A stretch of DNA of 64,000 bases from a bacterium (GTDB lineage Bacteria > UBA8248). A program made the position numbers and the translations under genes. Location of the stretch: NCBI GenBank assembly GCA_965218885.1, contig OZ244713.1:2104638-2168637 (forward strand), in the 5' to 3' direction. Below are positions 4,863 to 43,668 of the stretch, one piece after another; the stretch's first letter is position 1; each line of letters starts with the position of its first letter. The notes beneath the pieces are model-generated. The model was not told where the DNA came from. It was given only the letters and a program-made list of their open reading frames with translations, and made no database searches.

Positions 4863-4863
4863 T

Positions 4864-22690: not shown

Positions 22691-22692
22691 CC

Positions 22693-24816: not shown

Positions 24817-24835
24817 CGACGCTAGCCGCGCGCCT

Positions 24836-26554: not shown

Positions 26555-26662
26555 GCGTTCTCCGTGCCAAGATGGTTCAAATATCAAAGTAGAGCGGGAA
26601 GCTATCATAACACCACGGTGGGACGCCATTCCCGGGCGCTTCCGCCTCCAGAAATCGAGATC

Positions 26663-28759: not shown

Positions 28760-29420
28760 ATTTCATGACGCGGGCGGAGAAAACCCCGGTTTTAATGAAA
28801 ACGGGGATCAGGCGGAACCCTGCTTCTTCAACAGGGAAGTCCGCTTCAGAAAAACGATGATGAGGTAGATCAAGCCCAAGGCCAGAAACATCAGGCTTAT
28901 CGGCTTGCGGAAGAAAATCCCTGGGTCGCTATCAGAGAGAAAAAGAGACATTCCGCCCGCATAGACAGAGAGCGGTCTTCATCAGCGATGAAATCCCGTT
29001 ATCCATTGATATCATTGGGAAACTTGCATTGTTCCCAGTTTCGTTCGAAACCTTCCTTCCGCAGCGTGTAGTCAAACCGAAAGCGGATGAATAAAAACTC
29101 CCGCGCATCCCGGAGGGTATCTGTCGAATCATTCTCCGCTTTTCCAGAAAAAGCCCGTCTCGCAACGGATTGCCTGCGACGGGCTGTACGTCTCTTCTCG
29201 CCGGGGGCTAGGGGTTCATGCTCAGGCGGGTCGAGGAGGCCGGCCGGGACGTACGGCCGCGCCTCGCGCACGACGCCTGCGATGATGTTTCAGGGGTTCT
29301 GTCCGCGCATCCGGTTCGGCGCCGGCAGGCATGAACGACTCCGGGTTCGCCCCTTTATGGTTCGCGTATGTATGGGTATAGTGCTTGAAAATTCACACTC
29401 TCATAATAAGAGCAAACCAC

Positions 29421-30803
29421 ATGAGAAATAAAAATCGTTTCGCTCAGAAGGCTTTCACCGTTCTTCTCTCGTTCGCATTGATATTGCCCGGCTGCGGCGG
29501 CGGAGGCGGCGGCGGATCGTCTTTCCCCAGGCAGCCCGCCCTGATACCGGCTCAGGCGGTAAATGCGCCGGTCATTTATAGAAGAGATGGCGTCCAGATT
29601 GGCGGTGATGTCAGGCCGTCACGCCGCAGCTTGTCGCCGGCCGGAACGCACGGGGAGGTGTATGTATCAACTGGCCGCATAAGCGATGGAGAGAGTGCCG
29701 AGCGCGTACTTGATTTCATAGAAAAAATAGTGTTCTGGTATTCAAGTGATCCGGGAAAAAAATACTTGGAACTATTCGAAGGGACTCCAGTTGTCCGCAT
29801 TCGGGATACAACGCCGGACAGATATATCGATGATGTGATCCGTGTTGTGCAGCTTATGAATACCGCACTGCCCTACGATAAAAGAATCATTGTTTCCCCG
29901 GAGCGCGCCCCGCGTCCTGGCCTTGATGAATCATGGCCTAGTTACATTCCCGGCAAACATATATTCGTTGGCATCGAACCGCAAGGCTCGTGGCCTCCGG
30001 ATGAAATACCGCCAGTGCGTGTAGCAGGAGTTCAAGTAGGAGGCAGTTCGCTGGGCATCTATATCTGGCTCAATACGGACCTTCTAGACAATACAATTGA
30101 AATGAGGAAGGTCCTGGCTCACGAGCTTGGACATGCGATCGGTTTACTGGATCATATCGAGCGGAGTGACTACAACTCTATTATAAATATAGATTATCGG
30201 GACATTTTCATTCCGGCGCATATCCTTCATCAGATTGATACGGATGTGCTCTATGCACTTTACACTCGCTTCCTGGAACAATACGGAGACAGCCTGTACG
30301 ACCCTGACAAGCTAGGCCCGTGGACGGACGTATCCTTTCACCTGCGCGGCGATATGGATGACGTATCGTTCGGAGCCTCGTCGAGGAACGGGCTTATTCA
30401 GCCCTGGGCGCACGGTCAAAGCCCTGAAACGAATCTGGCGGATAATCAGTCGCTATTGGGAAGCGCAAGCTGGGCAGGCAGGCTCCTGGGGTTCACTTCC
30501 GAATCGGAATCGCTCGCAGGCGCTACGGATCTGACCATCAACCTCTCAACGCTCAGGGGCCGGATTGACTTTACCGGCCTCGAGCATTGGGGCGTGAACG
30601 CGACGCCGGGGCCTGCAGGCTCAGGAACGATGTGGAACGACGGCGACCTGCGGTACAGCGTCATCGTCCGGGGCAATACGTTCAATCAAACTGGCGGCGA
30701 TGCCGGAGAGGTTACGGGCGCGTTCTTTGGAGCACGGCACGAAGGAATGGGCGGTGTCGTCGAGAGGAGCGATATGTCCGCCGGATTCGGCGGAACCCGA
30801 TAG
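29421..30803 (+). CDS. Lipoprotein zinc metallopeptidase (HExxH).
   Basis: It has a lipobox (LILPGC) followed by a Gly-rich linker, and an HELGHAIGLLDH zincin motif. It sits in a local lower-GC region. Confidence 0.6.
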   Translation: MRNKNRFAQKAFTVLLSFALILPGCGGGGGGGSSFPRQPALIPAQAVNAPVIYRRDGVQIGGDVRPSRRSLSPAGTHGEVYVSTGRISDGESAERVLDFIEKIVFWYSSDPGKKYLELFEGTPVVRIRDTTPDRYIDDVIRVVQLMNTALPYDKRIIVSPERAPRPGLDESWPSYIPGKHIFVGIEPQGSWPPDEIPPVRVAGVQVGGSSLGIYIWLNTDLLDNTIEMRKVLAHELGHAIGLLDHIERSDYNSIINIDYRDIFIPAHILHQIDTDVLYALYTRFLEQYGDSLYDPDKLGPWTDVSFHLRGDMDDVSFGASSRNGLIQPWAHGQSPETNLADNQSLLGSASWAGRLLGFTSESESLAGATDLTINLSTLRGRIDFTGLEHWGVNATPGPAGSGTMWNDGDLRYSVIVRGNTFNQTGGDAGEVTGAFFGARHEGMGGVVERSDMSAGFGGTR

Positions 30804-32084
30804 AAAAAGAAGAAAAGGCAAGAATGAAGGAGTAGGGATCGCGAAATATCAAGCTGATCTGTATCTTTTTTCCGCTCTAACAATTGAGTCTGGAGTTTGT
30901 CGACTCTTCCTGGCAATTCCTGAAGAATCACTCCCCTCGGTACTGACTCTCGCCCGCTTTCAGACGGTAGGGTATTTCCAACGGCTATGAAATACAGTTA
31001 TCCTGTTGATATTGGTAGGACAAGTTCATTGTTCCCGATCCCGGCTGGAATTCGCCTACCGAAGAATGTAATCAAAACGGAAACGAGGAAATTCTAACTC
31101 CTGCGCATCCCGGCGCGTCCGTGTCGGTAAGCGTTCGGACGGGCGTGATAGCAGCACCCGAGTAGCGATAGTTCGGTGTCATGTCAGAACGTACCTAGTC
31201 CGGCCAAATGCTATCGCCCCATACAAGTCGGCAGAATCTCTAAGCACTTGTGGTGCATAGCTAGTATTCTCATCTTAGCCATCATGTCGTTGAACCCGCC
31301 GTCAAGCTCGACCCAGCCGATACTGTGGTCCGCTCTATCACGGCACGAGCAAACGCTTACCTCCTGTCGGAGCGTTGTACAACGCTCCTCCAAAGTCCGA
31401 CCCGAAACGGCTTGCTCATGGTCATGTTCCAGTACTCCTCAACCGCCCGGATTACCGGGGAAGTTCGAATTTTAATTTTGTTACAACATTCCAGAGTCAA
31501 CCCTTCTACTATACATATAGCAGGGTCGTATGCATTTTGTGATTTTCGCCGGGAGGAGTCGTTGGAGGGTCGAAGCCGTTTGCGGCGACCCAGGCGCAGT
31601 CGGCATCGAAAAGACGTTCCTCTTTCTTGATGACGCTTCGCCGATGAAGAGTAGGGAAGACGGTTTTGGAATAATCGACGTTCGACGATTGAGAAGGGAT
31701 TCAGGGAATCGGGGTTCCCCCTCTTCCATGTTCGCCGTCCGCCCAGCCGGCCACGACCTCCTCCCCACCCGGACCTCCGCCATGAGCGGAGCGACGTCGC
31801 TGCACCTCGCCTTGAGCTTGTCGAGATGGCGGATGATCTTGACTGCGTCCGCCTCCTCTATCCCGCCTGCCACGGCGACGAGGGTTCCCTGCGGTCGCAG
31901 TCATGCGGGCCGAAAAATCACATTGACATCTCGGCCGCTCAAACCTATCCTTTTGATATAGGCGCAAGATAAGCGCATCGTTGGACCCACGGAATTAGAC
32001 CCCCGTTCGGGGGGAGGAGAAAGGAGCCGGAGAAGATTCGTCCCGCCGACATAAGAGCAGAAACTGTTCGAGAGGAGAGGAGTT

Positions 32085-32825
32085 ATGAAGAAGTGGCGCT
32101 CATCCTTGGTTCCCGTCGGTTTTCTCCTCACTTCTTTGCTCATCGTCACATTCCTTTTCCCCACCGAAACCAAGGCTTTTGAGCGGGATTCCAAATGGGA
32201 TTCCGTCTATTCGAAGGGTAGCCGGCTTTACCTGACACACTGCGCGGCCTGCCACGGGAAGGACGGCGAAGGAGGCGTGGGTCTCCCCCTGAACCTGCAA
32301 AGCTTCCTGTCCGTCGCACCCGAAGGGTACATCCGCCGCTCTATCTTCTACGGACGGTTGCCGCGTCATATGCTCCCGTTCGGGATTTTCCTGAAGAAAG
32401 AAGACATCGAAGCCATCGCCTCCTACGTGCGAAGCTGGCAGCTCCGCGACTATGCAGGGATCGATCAAAACCGGGTGGCGGGCTCCGTTTCCCGCGGAAA
32501 GCTCTTCTTCGACGGGATGTGCTCCGGTTGCCATGGGCGGGACGGCCTCGGCGGCCCCCATGTGGGTGGAGGGCACGTGACCAATGCCATGGCGGGTTAC
32601 GCCGGACCCGCCCTGAACAACCAGGGTTTTCTGAAATCCGCCACCGACGGCTACATCAAGGCGACGATGATGCAGGGCCGGGTCGGTACGCCGATGGGCG
32701 CCTACCTCAAAGGAAAGCAAGGGATGGTGGAACTGACCGAGGAAGAGATTAACGACATCGTCGCTTACATCCGCACCTGGGAAAAGCATGGTTCGGGACC
32801 TGTAGACCCATGGAGGGCCAAGTGA
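32085..32825 (+). CDS. Diheme c-type cytochrome (class I-like) with a signal peptide.
   Basis: It has two CxxCH motifs (CAACH and CSGCH). Its stop overlaps the next start (TGATG). Confidence 0.8.
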   Translation: MKKWRSSLVPVGFLLTSLLIVTFLFPTETKAFERDSKWDSVYSKGSRLYLTHCAACHGKDGEGGVGLPLNLQSFLSVAPEGYIRRSIFYGRLPRHMLPFGIFLKKEDIEAIASYVRSWQLRDYAGIDQNRVAGSVSRGKLFFDGMCSGCHGRDGLGGPHVGGGHVTNAMAGYAGPALNNQGFLKSATDGYIKATMMQGRVGTPMGAYLKGKQGMVELTEEEINDIVAYIRTWEKHGSGPVDPWRAK

Positions 32826-35461
32826 TGCCGAGGTTTAATCGCCGTACGTTTCTGCAGTCGTCCACTGCCCTGGCCACCGGACTCGCCATGGGCGGAACCC
32901 TGACCCGCGACAAGGAGTTGTTTCAACTCGTCGGAGCAGCGGAAGGCGCCCAGGACACGCGAAAGCTGGTCCCCACGCAATGCCCCTACTGCGGAGTGGG
33001 ATGCCACACCTACTACGTCGTCGAGAATGAAAAGATCGTGGCGTGCATTCCGGACAAGGACTCCCCCGTCAACCTGGGTCTGCAGTGCATCAAGGGTCTC
33101 ACGGCCGCGGAGGCCCTCTACGTCGACCGGTTGGACGAGATCCTGATACGCAAGGACATGTCCAACCCGCTGACCGGGCACGTCTCGAAGACGAAAGGGC
33201 GTTTCGATGACGATGTCTTCCGGGTCGGCACGTGGGAAGAAGGCATGGACATCGTCTCCAACATGGTCGTCGGGATCGTGAAGAAACACGGGGGAAACTC
33301 CGTCGGGATCTATCAGTCCGGCCAGTTGACCATGGAGGAGCAATGGCTGGACAACATCCTCTACAAGGGCGTTCTCCAGTCGAATACCATCGAGGCCAAC
33401 GCCCGGATGTGCATGACCTCGGCCGTGACGGGCTACATTCACAGCCTCGGAAGCGACCATCCACCGGGGAACTATTCCGATATCGAAGATGCCGACTTCA
33501 TCAATCACTGGGGCCATAACGCGCGCGGGTCGCACCCCGTCCTCTTCTGGCGCGTGGCCGCCACCAAGGAAAAACGGAACATCCCGACCATGGTGGTCGA
33601 CCCGCGCTATACCGGGACCATGGACGGCTATGCCCAGGTCAACCGCAACAACAGCCTCTCGATCACCATTCGCCCCAACGGCGATCTCTCCCTTCAGAAC
33701 GCCATCGCCCACACCCTGATGAAGGAGTTCCCCCAAGCCGTGGACGAGGCCTTCATCCGGCAGCACACGGACGGGTTCGACGATTACCGCGAGGGAATCA
33801 TGGCCCGGTACAGCCCGGAGCAGGTCATCGATCGAACGGGGATCGCCCCCTCCGTGGTCAGGCGGATCGCCTCGATCTGGGCGGACGCCACCCTGAAGGG
33901 TCGGCGGCGCAAGAAAGGCGGCGTCCTCTCTTTCTGGGGGATCGGGTACAACCAGTCGATCCATGGACAGCACCGCACCATCAACCTCATCAACCTCCAT
34001 CTGCTGACCGGAAACATCGGCCGGCCGGGAGCCGGCCCGTTCTCCATGACGGGACAGCCCAACGCCATGAGCGAGCGCCTCATGGGCGGCCTTACCGGAC
34101 GGCTTCCGTTCAACGAGGGCATCAAGAACACCGGGCACCGCCGGAAGATAAACGAGGCCTGGGGCCTCCCTCCGGGACGGCTCGACGTCACCGCCGCCGC
34201 CCCGAACAAGGGCATGACCATCGGCATGTTCGAGCGCGCCTTGAAGGGTGAAGTCAAGGTGATGCAGTTCGCCTACGCCACCCACGTGGATCTGCCGGAG
34301 GTGGAAACCCTCATCCGGCCCGCCATCACCAAGACGTTTACCTACATGGTGGAGGCCTACCGGCACGCCCCGAATCTTCTCTACGGCGATGTCATCTTCC
34401 CCGCCGCCACCCACGGGGAGAAAGGGGGGGTGTACCAGAACAGCGAGCGAAAGATGTACGTCACGGACAAGGCCATGGAGCCGCCCAGGAACTGCAGGCC
34501 CGATCTGGACGTCATCATCGACGAGGGCAAGTCCATCGCCAGGAAACTCGGCCTGGACGCGGAGAAGATCTTCCCCTATGAGAGGAAGGCGGATGGTTTC
34601 TATGACCCGGAGGAGGTCTATCGGGACATCTGCCGGGCCAGCAAGGGAACGGATGCGGATTTGACGGGAATCGTGGAGGTGGAAAAGCGGGACAAGCTCT
34701 CTCCCTATGAGCAGCTCCGAAAGCGCAAGGGGATATTTTATCCCGCCCCCACGTATGAGATCGCCAAAGAGGGAGGGGTCGCGCGCAAGTACATGGCGCA
34801 GGAGAAGGGCTGGAAGGACAAGCCCTACAGCGCCTTCCGCCGCAAGAACGGCAGGGCGAAGTTCAAGCTCACCGAGCAGGACTATTCACGCGCCAAGGAG
34901 CTGACGGATATCTTCGCGAAAGCGGGCAAAGACCCGAATTTCTTCGCCATGGACCATTACGACGTCCTGATCCAGATGCGCGACAACGGGTTGACGCCGG
35001 AACTTCCGGATTTCGACTACTACGGAAAAGCCATGGCGGAGATTCAGAAAGCCGACAAGTACCCGTTCTGGCTGAGCCTGGGAGTCGTCTTCGAGCACTT
35101 CCACACCACCAAGACGATCCGGGCGCCCACCACCCGCCGGCTGGTGCCGGAACAGTATCTCGAATTAAATCCCCGCGACGCTCGAAAACTGGGAATCGAA
35201 GACGGGGAATGGGTCCGGGTCGTAACGCCGCGGGGTAGTTACGAGGCGCGTGCCAGCATCGGCACGAAGAGCAAGGTCAAACCCGCGCGCAACAAGGTCA
35301 TGCCGGGGCAGCTGTTCTCCCCGTGGAACTTATCCGTCGCGGACAGCGCCGACCCGAAGAAGAACCGCTGGCTCGTCAACGCGGTCACGCACCGGGCCTT
35401 TGATCCGGTATCCGGCCAGGTGGACTTTAAGCACGTAAAAGCAAGGATCGAGAAGATATGA
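32825..35461 (+). CDS. napA: Periplasmic molybdopterin oxidoreductase catalytic subunit of the NapA (periplasmic nitrate reductase) family, with a Tat signal.
   Basis: It has a twin-arginine signal (RRTFLQSSTALATGLAMGG). The N-terminal 4Fe-4S site CPYCGVGC...VACIPD...LQCIKG parallels NapA CRFCGTGC...VACQGD...LNCIKG. CMTSAVTGY aligns with the NapA Mo-ligand Cys segment CMASAVVGF. LLTGNIGRPGAGPFSMTGQPNA matches NapA [22 protein letters not shown]. The C-terminal VFEHFHTT is like NapA VLEHWHTG. Confidence 0.7.
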   Translation: MPRFNRRTFLQSSTALATGLAMGGTLTRDKELFQLVGAAEGAQDTRKLVPTQCPYCGVGCHTYYVVENEKIVACIPDKDSPVNLGLQCIKGLTAAEALYVDRLDEILIRKDMSNPLTGHVSKTKGRFDDDVFRVGTWEEGMDIVSNMVVGIVKKHGGNSVGIYQSGQLTMEEQWLDNILYKGVLQSNTIEANARMCMTSAVTGYIHSLGSDHPPGNYSDIEDADFINHWGHNARGSHPVLFWRVAATKEKRNIPTMVVDPRYTGTMDGYAQVNRNNSLSITIRPNGDLSLQNAIAHTLMKEFPQAVDEAFIRQHTDGFDDYREGIMARYSPEQVIDRTGIAPSVVRRIASIWADATLKGRRRKKGGVLSFWGIGYNQSIHGQHRTINLINLHLLTGNIGRPGAGPFSMTGQPNAMSERLMGGLTGRLPFNEGIKNTGHRRKINEAWGLPPGRLDVTAAAPNKGMTIGMFERALKGEVKVMQFAYATHVDLPEVETLIRPAITKTFTYMVEAYRHAPNLLYGDVIFPAATHGEKGGVYQNSERKMYVTDKAMEPPRNCRPDLDVIIDEGKSIARKLGLDAEKIFPYERKADGFYDPEEVYRDICRASKGTDADLTGIVEVEKRDKLSPYEQLRKRKGIFYPAPTYEIAKEGGVARKYMAQEKGWKDKPYSAFRRKNGRAKFKLTEQDYSRAKELTDIFAKAGKDPNFFAMDHYDVLIQMRDNGLTPELPDFDYYGKAMAEIQKADKYPFWLSLGVVFEHFHTTKTIRAPTTRRLVPEQYLELNPRDARKLGIEDGEWVRVVTPRGSYEARASIGTKSKVKPARNKVMPGQLFSPWNLSVADSADPKKNRWLVNAVTHRAFDPVSGQVDFKHVKARIEKI

Positions 35462-35542
35462 ATCCTCGATGAAACGAGAGGGATGGGGAGGGGACTCTCG
35501 CCTTCCTCATCTTTCCGGGCTTGGAGTTTTGGAGGTGGGAGA

Positions 35543-36133
35543 ATGGGCCTAAACAGACGGAGGTTCCTTCTTGCGGGGGCGCTGGCGCTATCCGGCGTCG
35601 CCTCCTGGGTCGCGGCCGGGCGGAGGGGTTTCGCGAGTTCCAAAACGCGTTTTCGCCGTCTCCTTCGCCCGCCCGGGGCTCTGAGCGAGCAGGATTTCCT
35701 CGATCGGTGCATTCGCTGCGCGAGGTGCGCCGCCGTCTGTCCGAACACCGCCATTCAGATGGCCGGGTTCGGGGAGGGCCTTCGAAACCTCAACACACCC
35801 TACATCGTCCCCCGCGAACAGGCTTGCATGCTTTGTATGAAGTGCACCGAAGTCTGCCCGACGGGGGCCTTGACCCAAATCGCCCCGGACGACGACTCCG
35901 TCCGCACTCAGGTCAAGATGGGACGCGCGGTGGTGGATCAATCCATGTGCTACTCGTACCAGAAGCGCACCTGCGGGGTGTGCATTCGCGCCTGTCCTTT
36001 TCCCGGGGTGGCCATGAAGACCGGAATGTACGAGCAGCCCATCGTGACGGACGCCTGCGTGGGTTGCGGGCTCTGCGAGCGCGCCTGCATCCACGTTCCG
36101 CAGGCGATCCGGATCGTCCCGGTGGAGTCCTGA
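35543..36133 (+). CDS. napG: NapG/MauM-family periplasmic ferredoxin (4x[4Fe-4S]) with a Tat signal.
   Basis: It has RRRFLLAGALALSG and the NapG-signature LRPPGALSEQDFLDRCIRCARCAAVCP. Four Cys clusters are present. Confidence 0.75.
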   Translation: MGLNRRRFLLAGALALSGVASWVAAGRRGFASSKTRFRRLLRPPGALSEQDFLDRCIRCARCAAVCPNTAIQMAGFGEGLRNLNTPYIVPREQACMLCMKCTEVCPTGALTQIAPDDDSVRTQVKMGRAVVDQSMCYSYQKRTCGVCIRACPFPGVAMKTGMYEQPIVTDACVGCGLCERACIHVPQAIRIVPVES

Positions 36134-36137
36134 TACC

Positions 36138-37661
36138 GTGGTTCGGTGGCTTCGAAGAGGGATTCAGTTGGGGGCCCTCGGTCTTCTCCTGGCCGTCCCC
36201 GCCCTCAATTACGGGGGGATCCTCTACCAGCAGTACGGCAAAAACGGGTACCACAAGATATCCCTGACGGGAACCGTTTTTGAACAATGGCTCTTCCACT
36301 TGTTTTCGGTCACGGTCGGGCGCCTGGCGGATCCCGCCGTCTGGTCGATGGACTGGGTGGGCAATTTCGGGTCGTTCTCCGTGTTCGGGTTCCCGATTCT
36401 CGATCCGGTGGTTGCGGCGGAGACCGTGATCCGCACCCCGGGCGCCTGGCTGGCTCTCCTGGCGGGGGCCGCGCTCCCGGTTGTTGTGGCCGTCGCCTTC
36501 GGGCGGATCTTCTGCGGGTGGGTCTGCCCGGTGAACACCCTCCTGGAGGGATTCGACCTCCTGAGACGGCGCGCGCTGCCGAAGATCGGCATCCGCCCGC
36601 CGGACCTCGTCGTTCCCCGGTGGGCCAAGTGGCTCCTGCTCTTCGTCGGGCTGAGCGCGGCGGTCGTCTTCGACATCGCCCTCTGGGCGAACCTCCTCCC
36701 CCACGTTCAGATCGGGCGGGACGTGTTCTCCCTCATGGTGTTCGGCGTCACCAACGGCGGCGTCCTGGTTTTCTCGGCGGTCATTCTGGCCGAACTGCTC
36801 CTCTCACGCCGGGCGTGGTGCCGCTCCCTTTGCCCGACCGGCGCGCTTCTGGGCTTCTTCGGCTCCCTGGCCCCCTTTCGGGTGCGAAAGGCCGAGCGTT
36901 CCTGCATCGATAATTGCACGGCCTGTGCGAGAGCCTGCCCCATGGGGGTCAATCCGGCGAAGCCGTTCTCCCTGGTCGAGTGTTACAACTGCGGGATCTG
37001 TACGACCGCGTGCCCCATCGACCTCCTGACCCTGGGATTCGCTCCCTCCCGCAGACGCTTTCCGGCCAGGCTCCTCTCGCGCCTGAGAAGGGGCGTCTCC
37101 TTGGGGTTGGGGGTGGCTTTGTTCCTGATCCCGGTCGCCGCTTCCGGCCACCATATGCGGGGAAAGCCCCACTACGGTTATGCAGAGAATTACCCCCAGA
37201 TCCCCACGCGCGAAACGCGCGTCCGGGTCGGCCGTTACGACATCACCGTGGTGAGCTATTTTTTCGAGGGGCTGCGCCGGCAAACTTCGGACACGCCGGA
37301 CGACGTGCAGTTCTACGTCAGCCTCACGGACTCTCGGACCGGCCAAAGCTACACGGGTCCCCTGACCATCGAGGTGCGCCGGGGGGAAACCCGGCTTGCG
37401 GTCTTCCAGCACGACCGGCCTCTCGAGGAAGCCGTGTACCGGGTCCGCCAGTCGGTGCCGGGAACGGGGCTTTATAACCTCAGGCTCGTCGCCGACGGGT
37501 TTCAGGGGTCCGTCTCGGTCGACGTCCGGGGCGATACCGTCTCCTGGATGCCGTACGCGGCATCGGGCGGGGTCCTGCTGTTCGTCTTACTCCTCTTTTT
37601 CCATCGCAGGCGAGCCCGGTCGGCCCGCCGAAGGAAGGCTCATGTGGCGCCTGGCGCGTAA
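36138..37661 (+). CDS. napH: NapH/MauN-family membrane polyferredoxin with an extra C-terminal FixH/CcoG-like periplasmic domain and a terminal TM anchor.
   Basis: GRIFCGWVCPVN and AWCRSLCPTGALLGF match the NapH CxxC motifs. There are two CxxCxxCxxxCP ferredoxin motifs. The protein is ~200 aa longer than canonical NapH and ends in a hydrophobic helix followed by RRRARSARRRK. Confidence 0.65.
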   Translation: MVRWLRRGIQLGALGLLLAVPALNYGGILYQQYGKNGYHKISLTGTVFEQWLFHLFSVTVGRLADPAVWSMDWVGNFGSFSVFGFPILDPVVAAETVIRTPGAWLALLAGAALPVVVAVAFGRIFCGWVCPVNTLLEGFDLLRRRALPKIGIRPPDLVVPRWAKWLLLFVGLSAAVVFDIALWANLLPHVQIGRDVFSLMVFGVTNGGVLVFSAVILAELLLSRRAWCRSLCPTGALLGFFGSLAPFRVRKAERSCIDNCTACARACPMGVNPAKPFSLVECYNCGICTTACPIDLLTLGFAPSRRRFPARLLSRLRRGVSLGLGVALFLIPVAASGHHMRGKPHYGYAENYPQIPTRETRVRVGRYDITVVSYFFEGLRRQTSDTPDDVQFYVSLTDSRTGQSYTGPLTIEVRRGETRLAVFQHDRPLEEAVYRVRQSVPGTGLYNLRLVADGFQGSVSVDVRGDTVSWMPYAASGGVLLFVLLLFFHRRRARSARRRKAHVAPGA

Positions 37662-37778
37662 GACAACCCAGACTCTCGCCGGCACGCCCTGGGCCCTTCG
37701 CCTAGTCGACTGGACCCTCGTGGAGTCGCTGAACGCCCTGGGGGCGCTGGCGGTCGCCGGCTGGTCTGAGGATGCGCG

Positions 37779-38357
37779 ATGAAGCCGATCGAATTCGACC
37801 GACGGACTTTCCTGCAAAAAGGGCCTTTCGCCTTTCTCCAGGCGGTCCTCTCCGGGTCTTCAACCGCTAGCGCCGATCCGCCCCGGCCGCCGCTCCGGCC
37901 GCCGGGCGCAGCACCGGAGGAGGAATTCCTCGAGCTGTGCTGTGGCGTCGGCGCGTGCGCGGAGGTCTGCCCGGCCGAAGCCATCCGGCTGGTCCCCGGG
38001 ACGGACGATTCAGGAGCCCTCCATCCGGTCATCGTCCCCCAGGAGGCCGCCTGTATCGTCTGTGAGGACCTCGCCTGTATGAAGGCCTGCCCGAGCGGCG
38101 CCCTCTCCCTGGTGTCCCGCGAGGAGATCCGGATCGGGCGCGCGCAGGTGAGCCCCGACCGCTGTCTCGTGTGGAGCGGGACGGACCCGGGCTGCGATTA
38201 TTGCGTGGACCGGTGCCCGCTCGGGACACAAGCCATCAGGTTCGAACGCGCCGGATCGGTTCGGGGTCCCGTAGTCGAGAAAGGGTGTATCGGGTGCGGC
38301 GTCTGTGAGTATTTCTGCCCGACGCAGCCTTCCGCCATTCGGGTGTACGGCTGCTGA
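37779..38357 (+). CDS. Second NapG/MauM-like Tat-dependent ferredoxin.
   Basis: It has RRTFLQKGPFAFL and LRPPGAAPEEEFLELCCGVGACAEVCP, plus further Cys clusters (CIVCEDLACMKACP, CDYCVDRCP, CIGCGVCEYFCP). Confidence 0.7.
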   Translation: MKPIEFDRRTFLQKGPFAFLQAVLSGSSTASADPPRPPLRPPGAAPEEEFLELCCGVGACAEVCPAEAIRLVPGTDDSGALHPVIVPQEAACIVCEDLACMKACPSGALSLVSREEIRIGRAQVSPDRCLVWSGTDPGCDYCVDRCPLGTQAIRFERAGSVRGPVVEKGCIGCGVCEYFCPTQPSAIRVYGC

Positions 38358-38953
38358 ATCCCGCCTGAAACCTCCGGTTCCGCCGGTTGCACGGCGGCGA
38401 ATGGATTGACGGAACAAAGTCCCCTGCCTTTCGATACGTAACGGAAAATTCCCGTACATTCTCGAATACATGGTTTCACTCCCGGCTTTTCGGGAGATGC
38501 CGGGAAGGTCTTTCTTCGCCCCTCGGCTTGAACAAGTTTGGGGGAGAATGGTAAATGCGGGAGGGGTATGATTTTGGGCCACAACGTTCTTTATGGAATC
38601 GAGCGTGCCTCGTCATGACGAATCTCGAATGCCGAAAGAACCCGACGAACCCCGCGCCACGCCCCCAGATCGATTGGGCCGAAAAAACCGACTCGCCCCG
38701 TCACCATACCCGCGCCCTCTCCCTGTCCCGCCGCCACAAATGCGGGGGAATGCGTCCCTCATATAGGGGTCGTCTCATGATGGTTCATTCCCGGTCGATG
38801 AGAAAAGTTCAATCCCGACCGAGAGGTGAGCGAGGAAAGCCTTCGATGTCGAGCCTTCGATTTCGTGGACAAATGACGCCCCGGCATGTAGATTGACGGT
38901 TCATCCATCGGTCCTCATTTTTTAGGATTCACTTCTTCATTCAGGAGTAAGCC

Positions 38954-41254
38954 ATGGCGGAAGCCAAAGACATGGGCGGCGCCGTAATCGGCGAATCTCT
39001 GCCCTTTTTGGACGATCCCGAAAAGGCGACCGGCGCTGCGGATTATCTCGACGATCTCCAGCTACCGGGAATGTTAACGGGCAAGGCGCTTCGCAGCGAA
39101 TACGCGCATGCCGAGATATGTTCGATCGACACGCGCGAAGCCCTGCGCGTCCCCGGCGTCGTTGCCGTTCTCACGGGCGATGACCTGCCGAACCATTCCC
39201 ACATCATTCCCCACGAGCGGGCCATGCCCGTCATCGCCTACGACAGGGTGCGCTATATGGGCGAAGTGGTCGCCCTCATTGCGGCGGAGACGCTCGAGGC
39301 GGCCGAGGCGGCGATGCGGCTGATACAGGTCGAATACCGCCCCCTGCCCGTCGTCTCCGATCCGCGCGAGGCGATGAAGAGAGGGGCGGAAAAACTCTTT
39401 CCCGGTGGAAACGTCCTGAACCAGGCGAAGATACGGAAAGGGGATGTCGGTGACGGCTTCGAGAAAGCCGACGTGATTGTCGAGAATGAATACTCGACTC
39501 CCTCCGTCGATCATCTTTATCTCGAGGTGGAGGCGGCGTGCGCGAGTCCGAACCCCGGCGGCGGAATTCAAATCTGGGGCTCGACCCAGCAGCCCTTTCT
39601 GGTGCGGCAGAACGTCGCCCGGATGCTGGGGCTCAAGGGTGAGAGTTCGGTTCGTTTCGTCCAGACGATCACCGGCGGGGCTTTCGGCGGAAAGAGCGAA
39701 GCGAGTCTCGACGTGTGCCTGCGCGCCGCGGCGCTCGCCGATGCCGCGGGCAGGCCCGTGAAGCTCGTGTATTCGCGCGAAGAAAGCATGATCGCCTCCT
39801 CGAAGCGTCACGCCACGTTCATCCGCTCGAAAACGGGAGCGACGAAAGACGGCCGCCTGGTGGCCGTTGAAGTGGAGGTATGGCTCGACAAGGGGGCGTA
39901 TGCGGCCAACGGGGGGGATAATCCGCCCGCTTTCAAGCGCGCGACCTACCATGCCGCCGGTCCCTATCAGGTGGCCAACACGAAGGTGGACGTGCACTGC
40001 GTGCACACGAATCACCCCTACGGAGGCCAGATGCGCGGGCCGGGATGTCCCCAGGTTCACTTCGCAGGTGAGCAGCAAATCGATGAAATCGCCAAGGTAT
40101 TGGGTATGGACCCCATCGAGATCAGGCGTATCAACGGGCTCCGGGTCGGTTCCCGTACGGCGTGGAACCAGCATTTGCCCGAGAGCGTCGGTTTTCTCGA
40201 TACGCTGAAGGAAGTGGGGGAGGCCTCATCCTGGGGAAGAGAGGGTGATGGAAACCGGAGACACGAAGATGGCCGTTTGCGTGGGCGCGGCGTGGCGAGT
40301 TGTCTGTATGGGACGGGGAACGCCTATTCTCCGGCCGAGGCGCACGTTTTTCTCCGGGCGGACGGCAAGGTGCAGGTGGCCGCCGGGGTCGTGGATTTCG
40401 GCCAGGGGAGCAAGACGGTGCTTTGCCAGATCGCTTCGGAGACGCTGGATATCCCGTACTCCGAGTTTTTGATGGATAGCGTGGATACCGCCATCGATCC
40501 GTTTGGCGGCACCAGTTCGAGTTCCCGAATCACCATGCAGGGCGGAAAGGCGGTCTACAACGCTTCTCTCAAGGCGCGCGTCGAATTGTTGCGCCTCGGC
40601 GGAATTCTGCTGGAGGCGGACCCCGAAGATCTGGAATTGCGAGGCGGCGTGGTTCGTTCGCGCTCGTATGAGGAAACGAGCATCACGCTTGCCGAGATCG
40701 CCAAGGCGTTCGTCGCCGATGAACTCAAACAAATCGCCGCTGCGGACAGCATTCCACCGCCTGCGAAAACCGACAAGGAAACGGGCCTGGGCGAGCCGTA
40801 TGAAGTCTACGGATTCGGCAGCCAGGTGGCCGAGGTGCTGGTGGACGAAGAGACCGGAGAGGTGGAGATCACCGGCGTCTGGGCAGCGCACGACGTGGGC
40901 CGGGCGATAAGCCCCATGGGCGTGGAGCAGCAGATCGAGGGCGGCGTGTATATGGGCATCGGTTTTTGCATGATGGAGGAAGTCGTTCAGCGGGAGGGTT
41001 TGATGCAAAACCCCGACATGCACGGCTACCTCGCTCCGACGGTGGAGGACGTGCCGGACCGGGTGGCGTCCGTCATCGTGGAGGATTCCTACTCGAACGG
41101 CCCTTACGGGGCGAAGGGAGTCGGGGAGCAGGTGAATGTCCCCACCGCGGCCGCCATCGCCAATGCGATTTACGACGCCACGGGCGTCCGGTTCCATGAC
41201 TTGCCCCTGACGCCGGATAGAGTCGCGATGGCGCTTTTGAAGGCGAGGTCGTGA
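38954..41254 (+). CDS. Xanthine dehydrogenase/aldehyde oxidase-family molybdopterin-binding large subunit (CoxL/XdhA-like). No FeS or FAD subunit genes are adjacent.
   Basis: 766 aa with the a/b-hammerhead and MoCo-binding domains. The GGAFGGK-type motif (TGGAFGGKSE) is typical of the family. Confidence 0.75.
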   Translation: MAEAKDMGGAVIGESLPFLDDPEKATGAADYLDDLQLPGMLTGKALRSEYAHAEICSIDTREALRVPGVVAVLTGDDLPNHSHIIPHERAMPVIAYDRVRYMGEVVALIAAETLEAAEAAMRLIQVEYRPLPVVSDPREAMKRGAEKLFPGGNVLNQAKIRKGDVGDGFEKADVIVENEYSTPSVDHLYLEVEAACASPNPGGGIQIWGSTQQPFLVRQNVARMLGLKGESSVRFVQTITGGAFGGKSEASLDVCLRAAALADAAGRPVKLVYSREESMIASSKRHATFIRSKTGATKDGRLVAVEVEVWLDKGAYAANGGDNPPAFKRATYHAAGPYQVANTKVDVHCVHTNHPYGGQMRGPGCPQVHFAGEQQIDEIAKVLGMDPIEIRRINGLRVGSRTAWNQHLPESVGFLDTLKEVGEASSWGREGDGNRRHEDGRLRGRGVASCLYGTGNAYSPAEAHVFLRADGKVQVAAGVVDFGQGSKTVLCQIASETLDIPYSEFLMDSVDTAIDPFGGTSSSSRITMQGGKAVYNASLKARVELLRLGGILLEADPEDLELRGGVVRSRSYEETSITLAEIAKAFVADELKQIAAADSIPPPAKTDKETGLGEPYEVYGFGSQVAEVLVDEETGEVEITGVWAAHDVGRAISPMGVEQQIEGGVYMGIGFCMMEEVVQREGLMQNPDMHGYLAPTVEDVPDRVASVIVEDSYSNGPYGAKGVGEQVNVPTAAAIANAIYDATGVRFHDLPLTPDRVAMALLKARS

Positions 41255-41373: not shown

Positions 41374-43668
41374 TCATAATTCCTTCCGGTCGAGAGCCAT
41401 CAGCAGAGTCGGCAGAAGCAGGAAATCGGCCAAAAGCGCAAAGACGAGCGTGATCCCGACCAGAAGGCCGAGTGACCAACTGAGTTCGAATCCCGAGAAA
41501 GAGAACACCAGAAAGCCCAACGATAAAACCGCGGTCGTGGTCCACAGCGCATGACCTACGGTGTTGAAGGTGGCGCGTACCGCATCGGGCGGGGATAGAC
41601 CCTCCTCACGGCGGGTTTTCAGATATTTGCTCAGAAAGTGAATCGTGTCGTCCACGATGATTCCGAAGGCGATGGCGACGACGACCGAGGAGGCAATACC
41701 TACCCGGCCGACCAGATGACCCCACAGGCCGAAGCTCATGGCCGCGGGAATGAAGTTGGGCACCAGGCTGATCAGACCCAGGCGAATGCTTTTGAAAACC
41801 AGTATCAAAATGAACGAAATAAGGGCCATGGCGATGATCGTGCCGCGCAGCATGCTGTGGATGTTTCGTTGGGAAAGGTGGGCGAAGATCATGCTGATGC
41901 CCGACGCTTCGGCCGCGAATTCGGGTAAGTTGGCGCGGAGCCAGGCCTGTGCGCGTGCGTCGAGATCGCGGTGGTCCCGGGAGGATATGCTGCGGACCAC
42001 GACGGTCATGCGCGTTGTGGATTTGGAGACGTCGATGCGGTTGTTGAGGTCGCTGCCGAAGGGAAGCGAGAACTCGTAGAGCAACAGATATTGCGCGGCG
42101 AGTTTGGGGTTGTCCGGTATTTGGTAGAAGGCCGGATTATCCCCGTGCATGTTCTTGTTCAGGCGCTTCATGATGTCCGGGAAGGCACGGACGTGACTCA
42201 CTTGGGGCTGCTTCCTGTACCATTCTGCGAAGGCGTCGACTTTTTTCAGGTATGCGGGGTCGGTGATGCCGCCTTCGCGTCCCGCTTTCAGCGCGTATTC
42301 CAGCGAATCCACGCCGGTCAGGTTTTCGATGACGAAGTCCGTGTCGCGCCGGAACTCGTAGCGCTCGTCGAAATAGTGCGCCCATCTGTCGGTCAACTCG
42401 TTGCGGGGAATGCCGCTGATGAGAACAACCGTCAGAATGGCGATGAACCAGAGCAGAGGCGTGCGGCGCTCGACGACGAAAGCGCCGAAGCGGTCGAAGA
42501 AGGCGGGCCGCTCGGCGCGGCGGCGCGGCGCGCGCAGCGGCAGGATGGAAAGCAGCGCCGGCAGAAGCGTCATGGAGTAGACGAAGGCGCACACCACGCC
42601 GAACGCCACGAAATTGCCCAGGACGTGAAAAGGCGGCGAATCCGAGGCGTTCAGGCTCAAAAATCCGATCACGGTCGTGATCGAGGTCAGGAACACGGGC
42701 CAGACGTTCTCTCGAAACGATTCCGCGATCGCCGCGTTCCTGTCTAGCCCACGCCCCATGCCCATCAGCGTGGCCGTGACGATGTGGACCGAATGGGCGA
42801 CGGAAACCGCCATAATGATGATCGGGACACCGGAATTGGCGGGGCTGAACACCGTGCCGAGCCAGCCTGCGACCCCCATGGTGTTCATGACGATGAACAC
42901 GAGCGCGATGATGATGGACAAGGTGCCGAGCACAGAGCGCAGGAGGAGTATGGTGGTGGCTACGATGATGAGAAACACAATCGGCGTGAGGATTTCGAGA
43001 TCGTCCTTCGTGGCGTCGGAGAAGGCGCGATGCATGACGACGTCGCCGGTCAGGTAATAGGCGATGTCCGGATGTTTCGCGCGCGCCTCCTTCAAAGCGG
43101 CGTTCAGATAATCGTTTATTTCGAGCACCGCGGCGTCGAGGTTGTCAGGCAGGATGAAAGTGACGGCCAGAGCTCCCACGCGTCCGTCGCGGGAGACGAG
43201 GCGCCCGGCGATTTCTGTGGCGCCCAGCGCGATTTTCCTGATTAGCGCGAGGTCGGCGTCTGTAAGCGCGCTCGCGTCGTCGACGAGCGGCTCGACAATC
43301 AGATCGTCTCCCTCCGCCCGGCTGTGGGAATAGTTGGTGAGGGAGTCGACCCGGCTGGAATGTGGCGTCTTCCACGCGGCTTTGGTCAGATCCTCGATAG
43401 CGCCGAGCGCCTCTTTGGTGAACACCGAGCCTTTTCGGGGCGCGATGGCGATGAGCGCCGTGTCGGATGTGGAGAAGGTGTTCTCGAGCGCGTTGAAAGC
43501 GGCGAGTTGCGGATTGTTTTCGCCGAACATAATGCGGTAATCGTTCGTGGTCTTGATGAAGCGCCCGCCCCCCGCCGTGATCAGCATGAGCAGCGTGGCG
43601 AGCGCGACGACCAGCCACCGATGGCGCAGAACGACGTCGATATAGCGGTCCAATTGCACGGGATTCAT
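41374..43668 (-). CDS. RND-superfamily MMPL-type exporter (COG1033-like). This is copy 1.
   Basis: 764 aa with two 6-TM bundles and two periplasmic domains. It is ~60-70% identical to 48450-50738. Confidence 0.8.
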   Translation of the reverse strand: MNPVQLDRYIDVVLRHRWLVVALATLLMLITAGGGRFIKTTNDYRIMFGENNPQLAAFNALENTFSTSDTALIAIAPRKGSVFTKEALGAIEDLTKAAWKTPHSSRVDSLTNYSHSRAEGDDLIVEPLVDDASALTDADLALIRKIALGATEIAGRLVSRDGRVGALAVTFILPDNLDAAVLEINDYLNAALKEARAKHPDIAYYLTGDVVMHRAFSDATKDDLEILTPIVFLIIVATTILLLRSVLGTLSIIIALVFIVMNTMGVAGWLGTVFSPANSGVPIIIMAVSVAHSVHIVTATLMGMGRGLDRNAAIAESFRENVWPVFLTSITTVIGFLSLNASDSPPFHVLGNFVAFGVVCAFVYSMTLLPALLSILPLRAPRRRAERPAFFDRFGAFVVERRTPLLWFIAILTVVLISGIPRNELTDRWAHYFDERYEFRRDTDFVIENLTGVDSLEYALKAGREGGITDPAYLKKVDAFAEWYRKQPQVSHVRAFPDIMKRLNKNMHGDNPAFYQIPDNPKLAAQYLLLYEFSLPFGSDLNNRIDVSKSTTRMTVVVRSISSRDHRDLDARAQAWLRANLPEFAAEASGISMIFAHLSQRNIHSMLRGTIIAMALISFILILVFKSIRLGLISLVPNFIPAAMSFGLWGHLVGRVGIASSVVVAIAFGIIVDDTIHFLSKYLKTRREEGLSPPDAVRATFNTVGHALWTTTAVLSLGFLVFSFSGFELSWSLGLLVGITLVFALLADFLLLPTLLMALDRKEL

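What the first reader, a model, noticed from the sequence alone, without database searches (positions are those of the whole stretch)
32085..38357. Atypical Nap-like periplasmic molybdoenzyme module: class-I-type diheme cytochrome, NapA-like, NapG-like, extended NapH-like and a second NapG-like, with no NapB/NapC/NapD/NapF
The catalytic subunit has the diagnostic NapA N-terminal 4Fe-4S motif, the Mo-ligand Cys segment and the GPFS(L/M)TGQP motif, but its middle and C-terminal regions are divergent. The electron-transfer partners are unusual. A cytochrome with CAACH/CSGCH (class-I like) replaces NapB, and the gene is translationally coupled (TGATG). Two Tat-exported NapG-like ferredoxins flank a NapH-like quinol-dehydrogenase subunit. 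This composition suggests a quinol to NapGH to NapG' or cytochrome to Mo-enzyme route. The substrate may not be nitrate; chlorate, selenate or another oxyanion is possible.
Basis: partly seen in the sequence, partly recalled or inferred. Interest (0 to 1): 0.6.

Follow-up and report, generated by a model that had tools for sequence, protein, structure and literature searches.

The report
Uncharacterised sister family of periplasmic nitrate reductase
This five-gene operon encodes a periplasmic molybdenum enzyme from a widespread, unnamed family that sits beside the known nitrate reductases (Nap and Nas) and has its own cytochrome and iron-sulfur partners; it probably reduces nitrate or a similar oxyanion, but nobody has tested it and gene surveys are likely to miscount it as ordinary napA.

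Summary
Window 32085-38357 holds five intact, co-oriented genes under purifying selection: a class-I dihaem cytochrome c, a Tat-exported Mo-bisPGD subunit, a NapG-like ferredoxin, a NapH-like membrane protein with a C-terminal extension of about 190 aa, and a second NapG-like ferredoxin. No NapB, NapC, NapD or NapF was found.

The Mo subunit is not a canonical NapA. It belongs to a monophyletic family outside the NapA clade. It is 32-34% identical to NapA and 33% to Nas. It scores 331 bits on the NapA model, where true monomeric NapAs score 716-812.

The active site keeps the Fe-S cysteines, the Lys, the Cys-Met at Mo and TGQPNA...Arg. It also has invariant family-specific changes.

The operon is not peculiar to this genome. 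At least 242 species-level genomes in more than 15 phyla carry the cluster. The usual form has a sixth gene, a second NapH-type membrane protein, which this window lost by deletion, leaving a 46-codon remnant.

The NapH extension is a periplasmic beta-sandwich with an invariant His-rich motif. It matches no Pfam family and seems confined to this system.

The most likely function is a quinol- or cytochrome-c-fed periplasmic reductase for nitrate or another high-potential oxyanion. The substrate is unproven.

The parts
31921..38445 (+). Conserved operon block (cassette). It is 96.8% nt identical to L001 and L002, and the flanks of all three are mutually unrelated.
   Evidence: no terminal repeats at the ends
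31923..31951 (+). Sigma-70-like promoter candidate, TTGACA-17-TATCCT, at the very start of the conserved block and about 135 nt upstream of the first gene.
   Evidence: This is a consensus match only: 1 site found against 1.6 expected by chance.
32085..32825 (+). Sec-exported class-I dihaem cytochrome c (246 aa). It has CAACH and CSGCH, each followed by a Met-Pro type distal ligand motif (HMLPFG, TPMGAY).
   Evidence: (closest solved structures: CcoP 1e-12, QcrC, cytochrome c4)
32825..35461 (+). Tat-exported Mo-bisPGD catalytic subunit (878 aa from ATG 32825; the ORF opens at 32810). It has an N-terminal [4Fe-4S] motif and a Cys-Met at the Mo site. It belongs to a family sister to NapA.
35543..36133 (+). 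NapG-like Tat-exported ferredoxin 1 (196 aa, four Cys clusters). The ORF opens at 35483.
36138..37091 (+). NapH-like core of the membrane subunit: 4 TM helices, CX3CP at residues 126 and 228, and two cytoplasmic [4Fe-4S] motifs at residues 256 and 282.
37092..37661 (+). C-terminal module fused to NapH: TM5, a periplasmic 8-strand beta-sandwich carrying the invariant HH-x-G-x-PH-x-x-Y-x-ENYPQ-x-P motif, TM6 and a basic tail. It matches no Pfam or NCBIfam family.
37642..37782 (+). 46-codon remnant of a second NapH-type gene. It is left by two deletions relative to L003 (L003 12870-13057 and 13148-14445) that removed a NapH2-NapG3 pair.
37779..38357 (+). NapG-like Tat-exported ferredoxin 2 (192 aa, four Cys clusters with variant spacing). 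It is still under purifying selection.

Best explanation
The operon encodes a self-contained periplasmic respiratory reductase of the Nap type, built on a catalytic subunit from a distinct, uncharacterised lineage next to NapA and Nas.

Shown by sequence:
- The Mo subunit is Tat-exported. It binds one [4Fe-4S] cluster and Mo-bisPGD through a Cys, and it has the Nap/Nas-type Cys-Met and TGQPNA...Arg active site.
- Two Tat-exported four-cluster ferredoxins (NapG-like) and one membrane NapH-like protein (4 TM, two CX3CP motifs, two cytoplasmic Fe-S clusters) are co-transcribed with it.
- A Sec-exported His/Met dihaem cytochrome c is translationally coupled to it.

Inferred:
- Electrons leave the quinol pool through the NapH-like/NapG-like pair, as in NapGH-dependent Nap systems.
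- Electrons may also arrive through the class-I cytochrome c, which a bc-type complex could feed.
- They reach the Mo centre, where a high-potential oxyanion is reduced. Nitrate to nitrite is the most likely reaction.
- The periplasmic His-rich beta-sandwich on NapH is an obligatory part of the membrane complex. It may be a docking or metal-binding element, but its role is unknown.

The window's copy is a streamlined five-gene version that lost the second NapH-type subunit yet remains functional.
For: Fold and domains:
- Pfam and NCBIfam domain hits.
- The AF2 model (pLDDT 84.7) best matches D. desulfuricans NapA, target TM-score 0.89-0.90, ahead of the formate dehydrogenases.

Active site: the Cys-Met, the Lys of CIKG, Gln and Arg are conserved as in Nap/Nas. 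The formate dehydrogenase signature (Cys/Sec-His and RGQ/RGH) is absent.

Export and topology: Tat signals on the three cofactor proteins, and a NapH topology with the Fe-S clusters in the cytoplasm.

Conservation:
- The gene order cyt c, Mo subunit, NapG, NapH(+module), second NapH-type, NapG recurs in about 80 loci from more than 15 phyla.
- Fusions NapH-module and NapH-module-X tie the membrane parts together.
- dN/dS is 0.04-0.26 for all five genes.

Context in related loci:
- FixK/FNR-type and sigma-54 regulators and a protoglobin-PAS kinase next to the cluster in L081.
- b6f-type cytochrome b and Rieske genes near it in the Phycisphaerae/Wallbacteria clade.
- MoeA near it in 3 loci.

Published work on Campylobacter shows that Nap can be fed by a quinol-cytochrome c reductase (PMC6195509, seen).
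Against: - No activity, expression or genetic data exist for any member.
- The family departs invariantly from residues conserved in both Nap and Nas: WGIGYNQ replaces W(T/C)MG(F/L)NQ (the Met308 position of D. desulfuricans NapA becomes Ile), and Arg-Leu/Ile/Phe/Tyr replaces Arg-Glu/Asp. NapA's DEPMG becomes D-(T/H/A)-PP. The substrate pocket may therefore differ.
- No NapD-type chaperone, nitrate/nitrite transporter or nitrite reductase is conserved nearby.
- Class-I His/Met cytochromes are more typical as electron acceptors of periplasmic dehydrogenases than as donors to reductases.
- The sister position to NapA rests on NJ trees only (80-94% bootstrap).
Confidence: 0.55

Rival explanations
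1. The architecture and electron flow are the same, but the physiological substrate is a high-potential oxyanion other than nitrate, for example chlorate/perchlorate, iodate, selenate or bromate.
For: - Invariant family-specific substitutions occur at positions conserved in both Nap and Nas: Met to Ile in WGIGYNQ, and loss of the acidic residue after the active-site Arg.
- The family is as far from NapA (32-34%) as from Nas (33%).
- A high-potential class-I cytochrome c donor fits only high-potential acceptors.
- Members are found mainly in marine sediment, sponge, oxygen-deficient-zone and groundwater MAGs.
Against: - The core Nap/Nas catalytic residues (Cys-Met, Gln, Arg, TGQPNA) are kept.
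- No chlorite dismutase or other substrate-specific accessory gene recurs in the neighbourhoods.
- The known chlorate, perchlorate, selenate and iodate reductases belong to other DMSO-reductase-family clades (general knowledge).
Confidence: 0.25
2. The enzyme runs in the oxidative direction. A periplasmic dehydrogenase oxidises a reduced inorganic compound such as nitrite or arsenite and passes electrons to the dihaem cytochrome c, and via NapGH-like proteins to quinone.
For: - The translationally coupled partner is a CcoP/c4-type His/Met cytochrome, the usual acceptor type for periplasmic dehydrogenases.
- Many carriers appear to be aerobes or microaerophiles, and one close relative comes from a MAG named as a putative nitrite oxidiser, L016 'ODZ_NOB7a'.
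Against: - The closest structural and sequence relatives are reductases (Nap, Nas).
- NapGH modules are known as quinol dehydrogenases that feed periplasmic reductases.
- FNR/FixK-type regulators are adjacent in some loci.
- The known nitrite and arsenite oxidases belong to other clades, and AioA scores only 127 bits.
Confidence: 0.1
3. It is an ordinary NapA operon that only looks odd because it is divergent.
For: Some sources (JGI) label fragments 'nitrate reductase NapA'. NapA is the top NCBIfam and PDB hit.
Against: - It scores 331 bits on the NapA model, against 716-812 bits for bona fide monomeric NapAs and a cutoff of 904. The Fdh-alpha model scores the same, 322 bits.
- The NapA clade has 99-100% support and excludes the family.
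- No NapB, NapC or NapD is present.
- The family has specific partners, the module and X, that are unknown in Nap systems.
Confidence: 0.04
4. It is a decaying, non-functional remnant in this (possibly symbiotic) genome, as suggested by the loss of the second NapH-type gene.
For: Two deletions removed NapH2-NapG3 and left a 46-codon remnant. Other relatives carry different partial remnants.
Against: All five remaining genes are full length relative to homologs and have dN/dS of 0.04-0.26, including the 'orphan' NapG-like 2. Translational coupling signals are intact.
Confidence: 0.04

Closest known systems
Monomeric periplasmic nitrate reductase NapA with NapGH (e.g. Desulfovibrio desulfuricans NapA, PDB 2NAP/2JIO; the Selenomonas/Desulfitobacterium-type napDGHCA operon)
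   Same: - Tat-exported single-[4Fe-4S] Mo-bisPGD subunit with a Cys-Met at Mo.
- TGQPNA...Arg segment.
- Best structural match, target TM-score 0.89-0.90.
- Co-encoded NapG- and NapH-like proteins.
   Different: - Only 30-37% identical, and outside the NapA clade.
- NapA-model score is 331 bits against 716-812 bits.
- No NapD and no NapC/NapM.
- About 120-150 extra residues.
- Ile replaces the conserved Met in WxMGxNQ, and a hydrophobic residue replaces the acidic one after the catalytic Arg.
NapAGHB-type Nap of Campylobacterota (Wolinella/Campylobacter), where NapGH is the quinol dehydrogenase and a dihaem cytochrome is the immediate donor
   Same: The logic is the same: NapGH plus a dihaem cytochrome c plus the catalytic subunit, with no NapC.
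   Different: - The cytochrome here is a class-I His/Met CcoP/c4-type protein, not bis-His NapB.
- There are two NapG-like genes and, ancestrally, two NapH-type genes.
- NapH carries an extra periplasmic module.
Assimilatory nitrate reductases NasA/NasC/NarB
   Same: The overall distance is similar (33% identity). The TGQPNAMG-xR spacing and the D-x-PP segment resemble Nas more than Nap.
   Different: Nas enzymes are cytoplasmic and lack a Tat signal. They partner with ferredoxin, flavodoxin or NAD(P)H modules. The family is periplasmic with respiratory-type partners.
CcoG/FixG/RdxA and NosR (NapH-like membrane polyferredoxins with extra domains)
   Same: A NapH-type TM and Fe-S core extended by a further domain. 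CcoG also carries a C-terminal Ig-like domain. There are weak CcoG and NosR model hits.
   Different: The best hit by far is NapH (114 bits, against 20-37 bits). The C-terminal module has no sequence similarity to FixG_C or any other Pfam family and only generic Ig-like structural matches.

Membership tests
NapA (periplasmic nitrate reductase catalytic subunit) | Scores at or near the curated NapA models (NF010055 cutoff 904, TIGR01706 cutoff 930) and clearly above other MopB models | tested here: not met
   It scores 331 and 304 bits, level with Fdh-alpha at 322. The best E-value among 40 family members is 2.5e-107. Bona fide monomeric NapAs score 716-812 bits, 150-250 bits above Fdh-alpha.
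NapA (periplasmic nitrate reductase catalytic subunit) | Falls inside the NapA clade in a phylogeny | tested here: not met
   NJ trees: the NapA clade (12 monomeric + 2 heterodimeric) has 100% support and the family forms a separate clade at 100%. The sister relation has 80-94% support. No ML tree was run.
NapA (periplasmic nitrate reductase catalytic subunit) | Tat signal, N-terminal CxxCxxxC...C [4Fe-4S] motif with a following Lys, and a Cys Mo ligand followed by Met | tested here: met
   NRRTFLQ; CPYCGVGC...QCIKG; ARMCMTSAV. All are invariant in the family.
NapA (periplasmic nitrate reductase catalytic subunit) | Full set of Nap-conserved active-site and funnel residues (D. desulfuricans numbering: Met141, Asp155-Glu156, Met308, Gln346, Arg354 followed by an acidic residue) | tested here: not met
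   Met141, Asp155, Gln346 and Arg354 are kept. Glu156 becomes His/Thr/Ala, Met308 becomes Ile, and the acidic residue after the Arg becomes Leu/Ile/Phe/Tyr.
NapA (periplasmic nitrate reductase catalytic subunit) | Dedicated NapD chaperone and a NapB and/or NapC/NapM redox partner encoded with it | tested here: not met
   There are no tblastn hits in the window, and none are conserved in about 80 loci. No small conserved ORF family appears in the cluster analysis. BLAST-level sensitivity is weak for a protein as small as NapD.
NapA (periplasmic nitrate reductase catalytic subunit) | Nitrate reductase activity | not testable with these tools
   No member has been characterised, as far as seven literature searches could show.
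Formate dehydrogenase alpha (FdhF/FdnG type) | Sec/Cys Mo ligand followed by His, and an Arg in the (L/V)RG(Q/H) segment | tested here: not met
   The family has Cys-Met and MTGQPN at those columns. The Fdh-alpha model scores 322 bits against a cutoff of 666.
Assimilatory nitrate reductase (NasA/NasC/NarB) | Cytoplasmic (no Tat signal); passes the Nas models | tested here: not met
   A Tat motif is present. It scores 257 and 240 bits against cutoffs of 1000 and 1100. The Nas sequences group apart from the family in the trees.
NapG (periplasmic four-cluster ferredoxin) | Tat signal, four Cys clusters, and a pass on the NapG/MauM models | tested here: inconclusive
   The Tat motifs and four Cys groups are present. 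NapG is the best hit, but at 126 and 103 bits both copies fall below the cutoff of 269. The subfamily model TIGR00397 gives 109 and 88 bits against a cutoff of 179. They are 37% and 34% identical to E. coli NapG.
NapH (membrane quinol dehydrogenase subunit) | 4 TM helices, two CX3CP motifs, two cytoplasmic [4Fe-4S] motifs, and a pass on the NapH/MauN models | tested here: inconclusive
   The topology and all motifs are present. The NapH models are the best hits but fall below their cutoffs: 114 bits against 234, and 110 against 213. There is also an extra module of about 190 aa that NapH lacks.
NapB (dihaem cytochrome c subunit of Nap) | Sequence similarity to NapB (Pfam PF03892), with bis-His haems | tested here: not met
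   There is no NapB hit by Pfam, NCBIfam or tblastn. Instead the matches are Cytochrom_C/Cytochrome_CBB3 domains with Met-ligand motifs, and the closest solved structures are CcoP, QcrC and cytochrome c4.

The most novel reading that the evidence does not exclude
The family is a previously unrecognised third lineage beside Nap and Nas. It would define a new periplasmic respiratory system with three distinguishing traits:
- its own electron-input machinery: two NapGH-type modules, a bc/c4-type cytochrome entry point and a system-specific His-rich periplasmic module;
- a physiological substrate, or a kinetic niche, that differs from classical Nap, for example iodate, chlorate or selenate, or very low nitrate concentrations;
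- wide distribution in marine, sponge-associated, sediment and groundwater bacteria, where it is currently miscounted as napA or ignored.
Probability: 0.25. Interest if true: 0.8.

Novelty: new variant of a known kind. Interest (0 to 1): 0.6.

Why it matters
Nitrogen-cycle inventories from metagenomes usually assign function by similarity to napA, narG or nas. This family has at least 242 species-level genomes in more than 15 phyla, and every one of the 120 best 90%-identity protein clusters listed scores 1166 bits or more. It sits between the curated models: NCBI calls it only 'molybdopterin-dependent oxidoreductase', while JGI variously calls it NapA, ferredoxin-nitrate reductase or 'selenocysteine-containing dehydrogenase'.

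If it reduces nitrate, a sizeable share of periplasmic nitrate-reducing capacity in sponges, sediments, oxygen-deficient waters and aquifers is being mislabelled or missed. If it reduces something else, it is a new respiratory pathway.

The conserved partners give concrete handles for biochemistry on how NapGH-type quinol dehydrogenases work. No structure of that module has been solved. These partners are a class-I dihaem cytochrome, duplicated NapGH-type modules and a system-specific His-rich beta-sandwich.

Tried and rejected
- **Canonical NapA.** Rejected on model scores, trees and missing partners.
- **Formate dehydrogenase or assimilatory Nas.** Rejected on active-site columns and the Tat signal.
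- **Literature.** Seven searches found no paper describing this clade. Two promising papers describe other systems: the Planctomycetota tunnel MAGs and Lacipirellula.
- **Plasmid collection.** It has no family member; the best hit is 32% identical.
- **Named members.** Cluster look-up gave only generic names and no cultured organism.
- **FNR box.** A search of the window (TTGAT-N4-ATCAA) gave no site near the operon, and the overall count is not above chance.
- **Rfam.** Nothing was found in 28.7-39.0 kb.
- **Mobile element.** No terminal direct or inverted repeats and no transposase lie at the cassette ends, so this is not supported despite the unrelated flanks.
- **Neighbour genes as substrate hints.** The MFS transporter next to the cassette in L092 is lactate/oxalate-formate type, not NarK. 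No nitrite reductase or chlorite dismutase recurs.
- **Exact look-up.** The window's Mo subunit is not on record in the contig collection.

Full report
**1. What is in the sequence**

- The first (246 aa) has a Sec-type signal and two class-I cytochrome c domains (Pfam Cytochrom_C and Cytochrome_CBB3). The haem motifs are CAACH and CSGCH, each followed by a Met-Pro-type distal ligand motif.
- Its TGA stop (32823-32825) overlaps an ATG at 32825, and a GGAGG lies 9 nt upstream. The Mo subunit therefore most likely starts at 32825 (878 aa), as gene callers chose in relatives.
- The Mo subunit has a twin-arginine motif (NRRTFLQ) and the domain set Molybdop_Fe4S4 + Molybdopterin + Molydop_binding.
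- NapG-like 1 probably starts at ATG 35543 (MGLNRRRFLL). NapG-like 2 starts at 37779 (DRRTFLQ). Both have four Cys clusters and hit NapG best, at 126 and 103 bits, below the 269-bit cutoff.
- The 507-aa membrane protein hits NapH best, at 114 bits against a cutoff of 234, over residues 51-299. It has four TM helices, two CX3CP motifs and two Fe-S motifs in a strongly basic, hence cytoplasmic, loop.
- After that core come a fifth TM helix, about 130 residues predicted to be periplasmic, a sixth TM helix and a basic tail.

**2. Missing Nap partners and evidence of function**

tblastn with NapB, NapC, NapD and NapF from E. coli, and NapC/NapD from Selenomonas and Niveispirillum, finds nothing in the 64 kb window except Fe-S cross-hits to the NapG/H-like genes. 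All five genes have dN/dS of 0.04-0.26 against six relatives.

**3. The catalytic subunit is not a NapA**

*Model scores*
- It scores 331 bits on the NCBIfam NapA model (cutoff 904) and 322 bits on Fdh-alpha (cutoff 666), so the models do not discriminate.
- Forty diverse relatives do no better, with a best E-value of 2.5e-107.
- As a calibration, five bona fide monomeric NapAs (Selenomonas, Symbiobacterium, Desulfitobacterium, Desulfuribacillus, Thermoanaerobaculia) score 716-812 bits on NapA and only 550-575 bits on Fdh-alpha.

*Trees.* I built NJ trees with 200 bootstraps.
- The first used 3 NapAs.
- The second used 12 monomeric and 2 heterodimeric NapAs, 3 Nas, FdhF, YdeP and FdnG.
- The NapA clade has 99-100% support and excludes the family.
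- The family is monophyletic at 100%.
- Its sister position to NapA has 94% and 80% support in the two trees.

*Identities*
- Family to NapA: 32-34%.
- Family to Nas: 33%.
- Monomeric NapA to heterodimeric NapA: 45%.
- Monomeric NapA to Nas: 40%.

The family is thus a lineage of about the same rank as Nap and Nas.

*Structure.* An AF2 model (pLDDT 84.7, pTM 0.87) best superposes on D. desulfuricans NapA (target TM-score 0.89-0.90, 27-28% identity). E. coli and Cupriavidus NapA follow at 0.82-0.83, and the formate dehydrogenases at 0.62-0.85. About a quarter of the query remains unmatched (query TM-score 0.74).

**4. Active site**

Kept, and invariant in the family:
- the four Fe-S cysteines and the Lys of QCIKG;
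- ARMCMTSAV, the Cys Mo ligand followed by Met as in Nap and Nas (formate dehydrogenases have Cys/Sec-His);
- Asp155, Gln346 and Arg354 (D. desulfuricans numbering) within TGQPNAM(G/S)-ER.

Changed, and also nearly invariant in the family:
- WGIGYNQ where Nap and Nas have W(T/C)MG(F/L)NQ, so Met308 becomes Ile. FdhF and YdeP also keep Met at this position.
- D-(T/H/A)-PP where NapA has DEPMG.
- A hydrophobic residue after the catalytic Arg, where Nap and Nas have Glu or Asp.

The chemistry is Nap/Nas-like, but the pocket is not identical.

**5. It is a widespread, conserved system**

*Extent of the family*
- The protein search returned 120 listed clusters, all scoring 1166 bits or more and named only generically.
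- The genome scan found 242 species-level genomes.
- Apart from Candidatus Entotheonella, all 80 loci kept are MAGs. They are labelled Nitrospinota/Tectomicrobia/Binatia (81-99% identical) and Myxococcota, Planctomycetota/Phycisphaerae, Hydrogenedentota, Latescibacterota, Gemmatimonadota, Poribacteria, Entotheonella, Sericytochromatia, Wallbacteria, Elusimicrobia, Cloacimonadota and Omnitrophota (55-62%).
- No named cultured carrier turned up.

*Conserved neighbours.* Across the loci only four families are conserved around the Mo subunit: the cytochrome c, the Mo subunit, NapG-like (about two per locus) and NapH-like (about two per locus).

*The sixth gene*
- The usual cluster has six genes. 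Between the extended NapH and the second NapG lies 'X', a membrane protein of about 530 aa with CX3CP and Fe-S motifs, weak NapH/CcoG similarity and extra C-terminal helices with conserved histidines.
- In the Nitrospinota-like clade a normal NapH2 plus a third NapG occupy that position instead (L003, L016, L039).
- Relative to L003, the window has two deletions that remove this pair and leave a 90-bp fragment inside a 46-codon ORF at 37642-37782. That ORF still overlaps the NapG-like 2 start by ATGA.
- Several relatives carry other partial remnants.

**6. The NapH extension**

It matches no Pfam or NCBIfam family. Alignment across phyla shows an invariant motif, HH-x-G-x-PH-x-x-Y-x-ENYPQ-x-P, directly after the hydrophobic helix.

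The module occurs in three forms:
- fused to NapH, as in the window;
- as a stand-alone gene of about 210 aa with an N-terminal signal or anchor and a C-terminal TM helix (for example L022 and L041);
- in triple fusions NapH-module-X of 1057-1161 aa (L030, L034, L048).

An exhaustive HMMER search of 1.84 billion representatives found only 116 proteins. Their lengths mostly cluster around these three forms, so the module seems specific to this system.

AF2 gives a confident 8-strand beta-sandwich (pLDDT above 90 for residues 50-150), while the His-rich segment is poorly predicted. Foldseek against the PDB returns only generic Ig-like domains with no hit at E <= 0.001. The CopC-like copper protein CrdA ranks third. 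Its role is unknown. Docking or metal binding are guesses.

**7. Genomic setting**

The block 31921-38445 is 96.8% nt identical to L001 and L002, yet the flanks of the window, L001 and L002 are mutually unrelated. The 94% relative has a giant PKS upstream instead.
- The conserved block begins exactly at a sigma-70-like TTGACA-17-TATCCT, though one such site is no more than chance expectation.
- There are no terminal repeats or transposase genes.
- The operon therefore behaves as a discrete cassette that has been moved or reshuffled. No mobility mechanism is evident.

Neighbours elsewhere give only soft hints:
- a FixK/FNR-type regulator, a sigma-54 response regulator and a protoglobin-PAS kinase in L081;
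- b6f-type cytochrome b and Rieske genes in the Phycisphaerae/Wallbacteria clade;
- MoeA in three loci.

No nitrite reductase, NarK or chlorite dismutase recurs.

**8. Most likely mechanism**

*Shown:* a periplasmic Mo-bisPGD/[4Fe-4S] enzyme with a Nap/Nas-like active site, two periplasmic four-cluster ferredoxins, one NapH-type membrane Fe-S protein and one periplasmic His/Met dihaem cytochrome c, all co-transcribed and co-conserved.

*Inferred, by analogy with NapGH-dependent Nap systems and with the Qcr-fed Nap of Campylobacter (PMC6195509):*
- Quinol electrons enter through NapH/NapG, or through a bc-type complex and the cytochrome c.
- They reduce a high-potential oxyanion at Mo. Nitrate is the most likely substrate.

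I put about 0.55 on this reading. The rivals are the same machine with another oxyanion (0.25), operation as a dehydrogenase (0.1), and canonical Nap or a decaying remnant (about 0.04 each).

**9. Novelty**

Seven full-text searches found no description of the clade. No curated model or solved structure covers it, and no NapG or NapH structure exists at all. The library is incomplete, so a prior description cannot be excluded.

I rate it a new variant of a known kind: a Nap-type periplasmic reductase system built on a separate catalytic lineage with partly new accessory proteins.

Noticed in passing
window 37642-37782: 46-codon ORF that is the remnant of a second NapH-type gene. Two deletions relative to L003 removed a NapH2-NapG3 pair. 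Other close relatives (L005, L009, L010) keep different N-terminal remnants, which suggests repeated independent decay of this part of the cluster.
   Followed up: yes
window 31921-38445 versus L001 7110-13638 and L002 7112-13563: The operon is a 6.5 kb block, 96-97% nt identical in three genomes whose flanking DNA is mutually unrelated. It has no terminal repeats or transposase. This points to recent transfer or rearrangement by an unidentified route.
   Followed up: partly
L081 14874-16478 (also L022 12742-14286; fusions in L030, L034, L048): 'X' is a conserved membrane protein of about 530 aa in most family loci but absent from the window. It has a NapH/CcoG-like CX3CP and Fe-S core plus extra C-terminal TM helices with conserved histidines, which might bind haem b. 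In L057 the gene at the same position (12603-14093) has a thioredoxin-like DUF255 N-terminus. It has no Pfam family.
   Followed up: partly
L081/L082 4066-9000 (minus strand): Divergently upstream of the cluster lies another NapG/NapH-like pair together with a multihaem cytochrome (Cytochrome_C554/MtrC-like), DUF4266 and DUF3570. This could be a second periplasmic or outer-membrane electron-transfer module.
   Followed up: no
L092 1-8765 (same place as L003): A polyketide synthase gene of more than 3493 aa sits directly upstream of the cassette in the 94%-identical relative on a 4.28 Mb chromosome.
   Followed up: no
window 38954-41254: A xanthine-dehydrogenase/aldehyde-oxidase-family molybdenum-cofactor-binding subunit lies just downstream of the cassette but outside the conserved block. 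It is a second, unrelated molybdoenzyme.
   Followed up: no
window 20906-28759: Two hydantoinase/oxoprolinase B + A gene pairs lie side by side: HyuB 20906-22690 (+), HyuA 22528-24816 (+), HyuB 24836-26749 (-) and HyuA about 26666-28759 (+).
   Followed up: no
window 41374-43668 (-), 48450-50738 (-), 43799-44965 (-): Two MMPL/sterol-sensing-domain transporters and an MpaB/Lcp-like oxygenase.
   Followed up: no
window 29385-30803 and 30804-31920: A 472-aa lipoprotein-like ORF with a Gly run and an HELGH metalloprotease-like motif has no Pfam hit. It is followed by about 1.1 kb of lower-GC DNA (0.54) with no convincing ORF, no Rfam hit and no similarity to the relatives' loci.
   Followed up: partly
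window 1-8000: GC content is 0.50-0.52 here, against about 0.60 for the rest of the window.
   Followed up: no
L073 3517-5088; L066 2631-3125: b6f-type cytochrome b (closest NCBIfam model ExtP, 236 bits against a cutoff of 290) and Rieske genes sit a few kb upstream of the cluster in the Wallbacteria/Phycisphaerae clade. A bc-type complex may feed the dihaem cytochrome there.
   Followed up: partly
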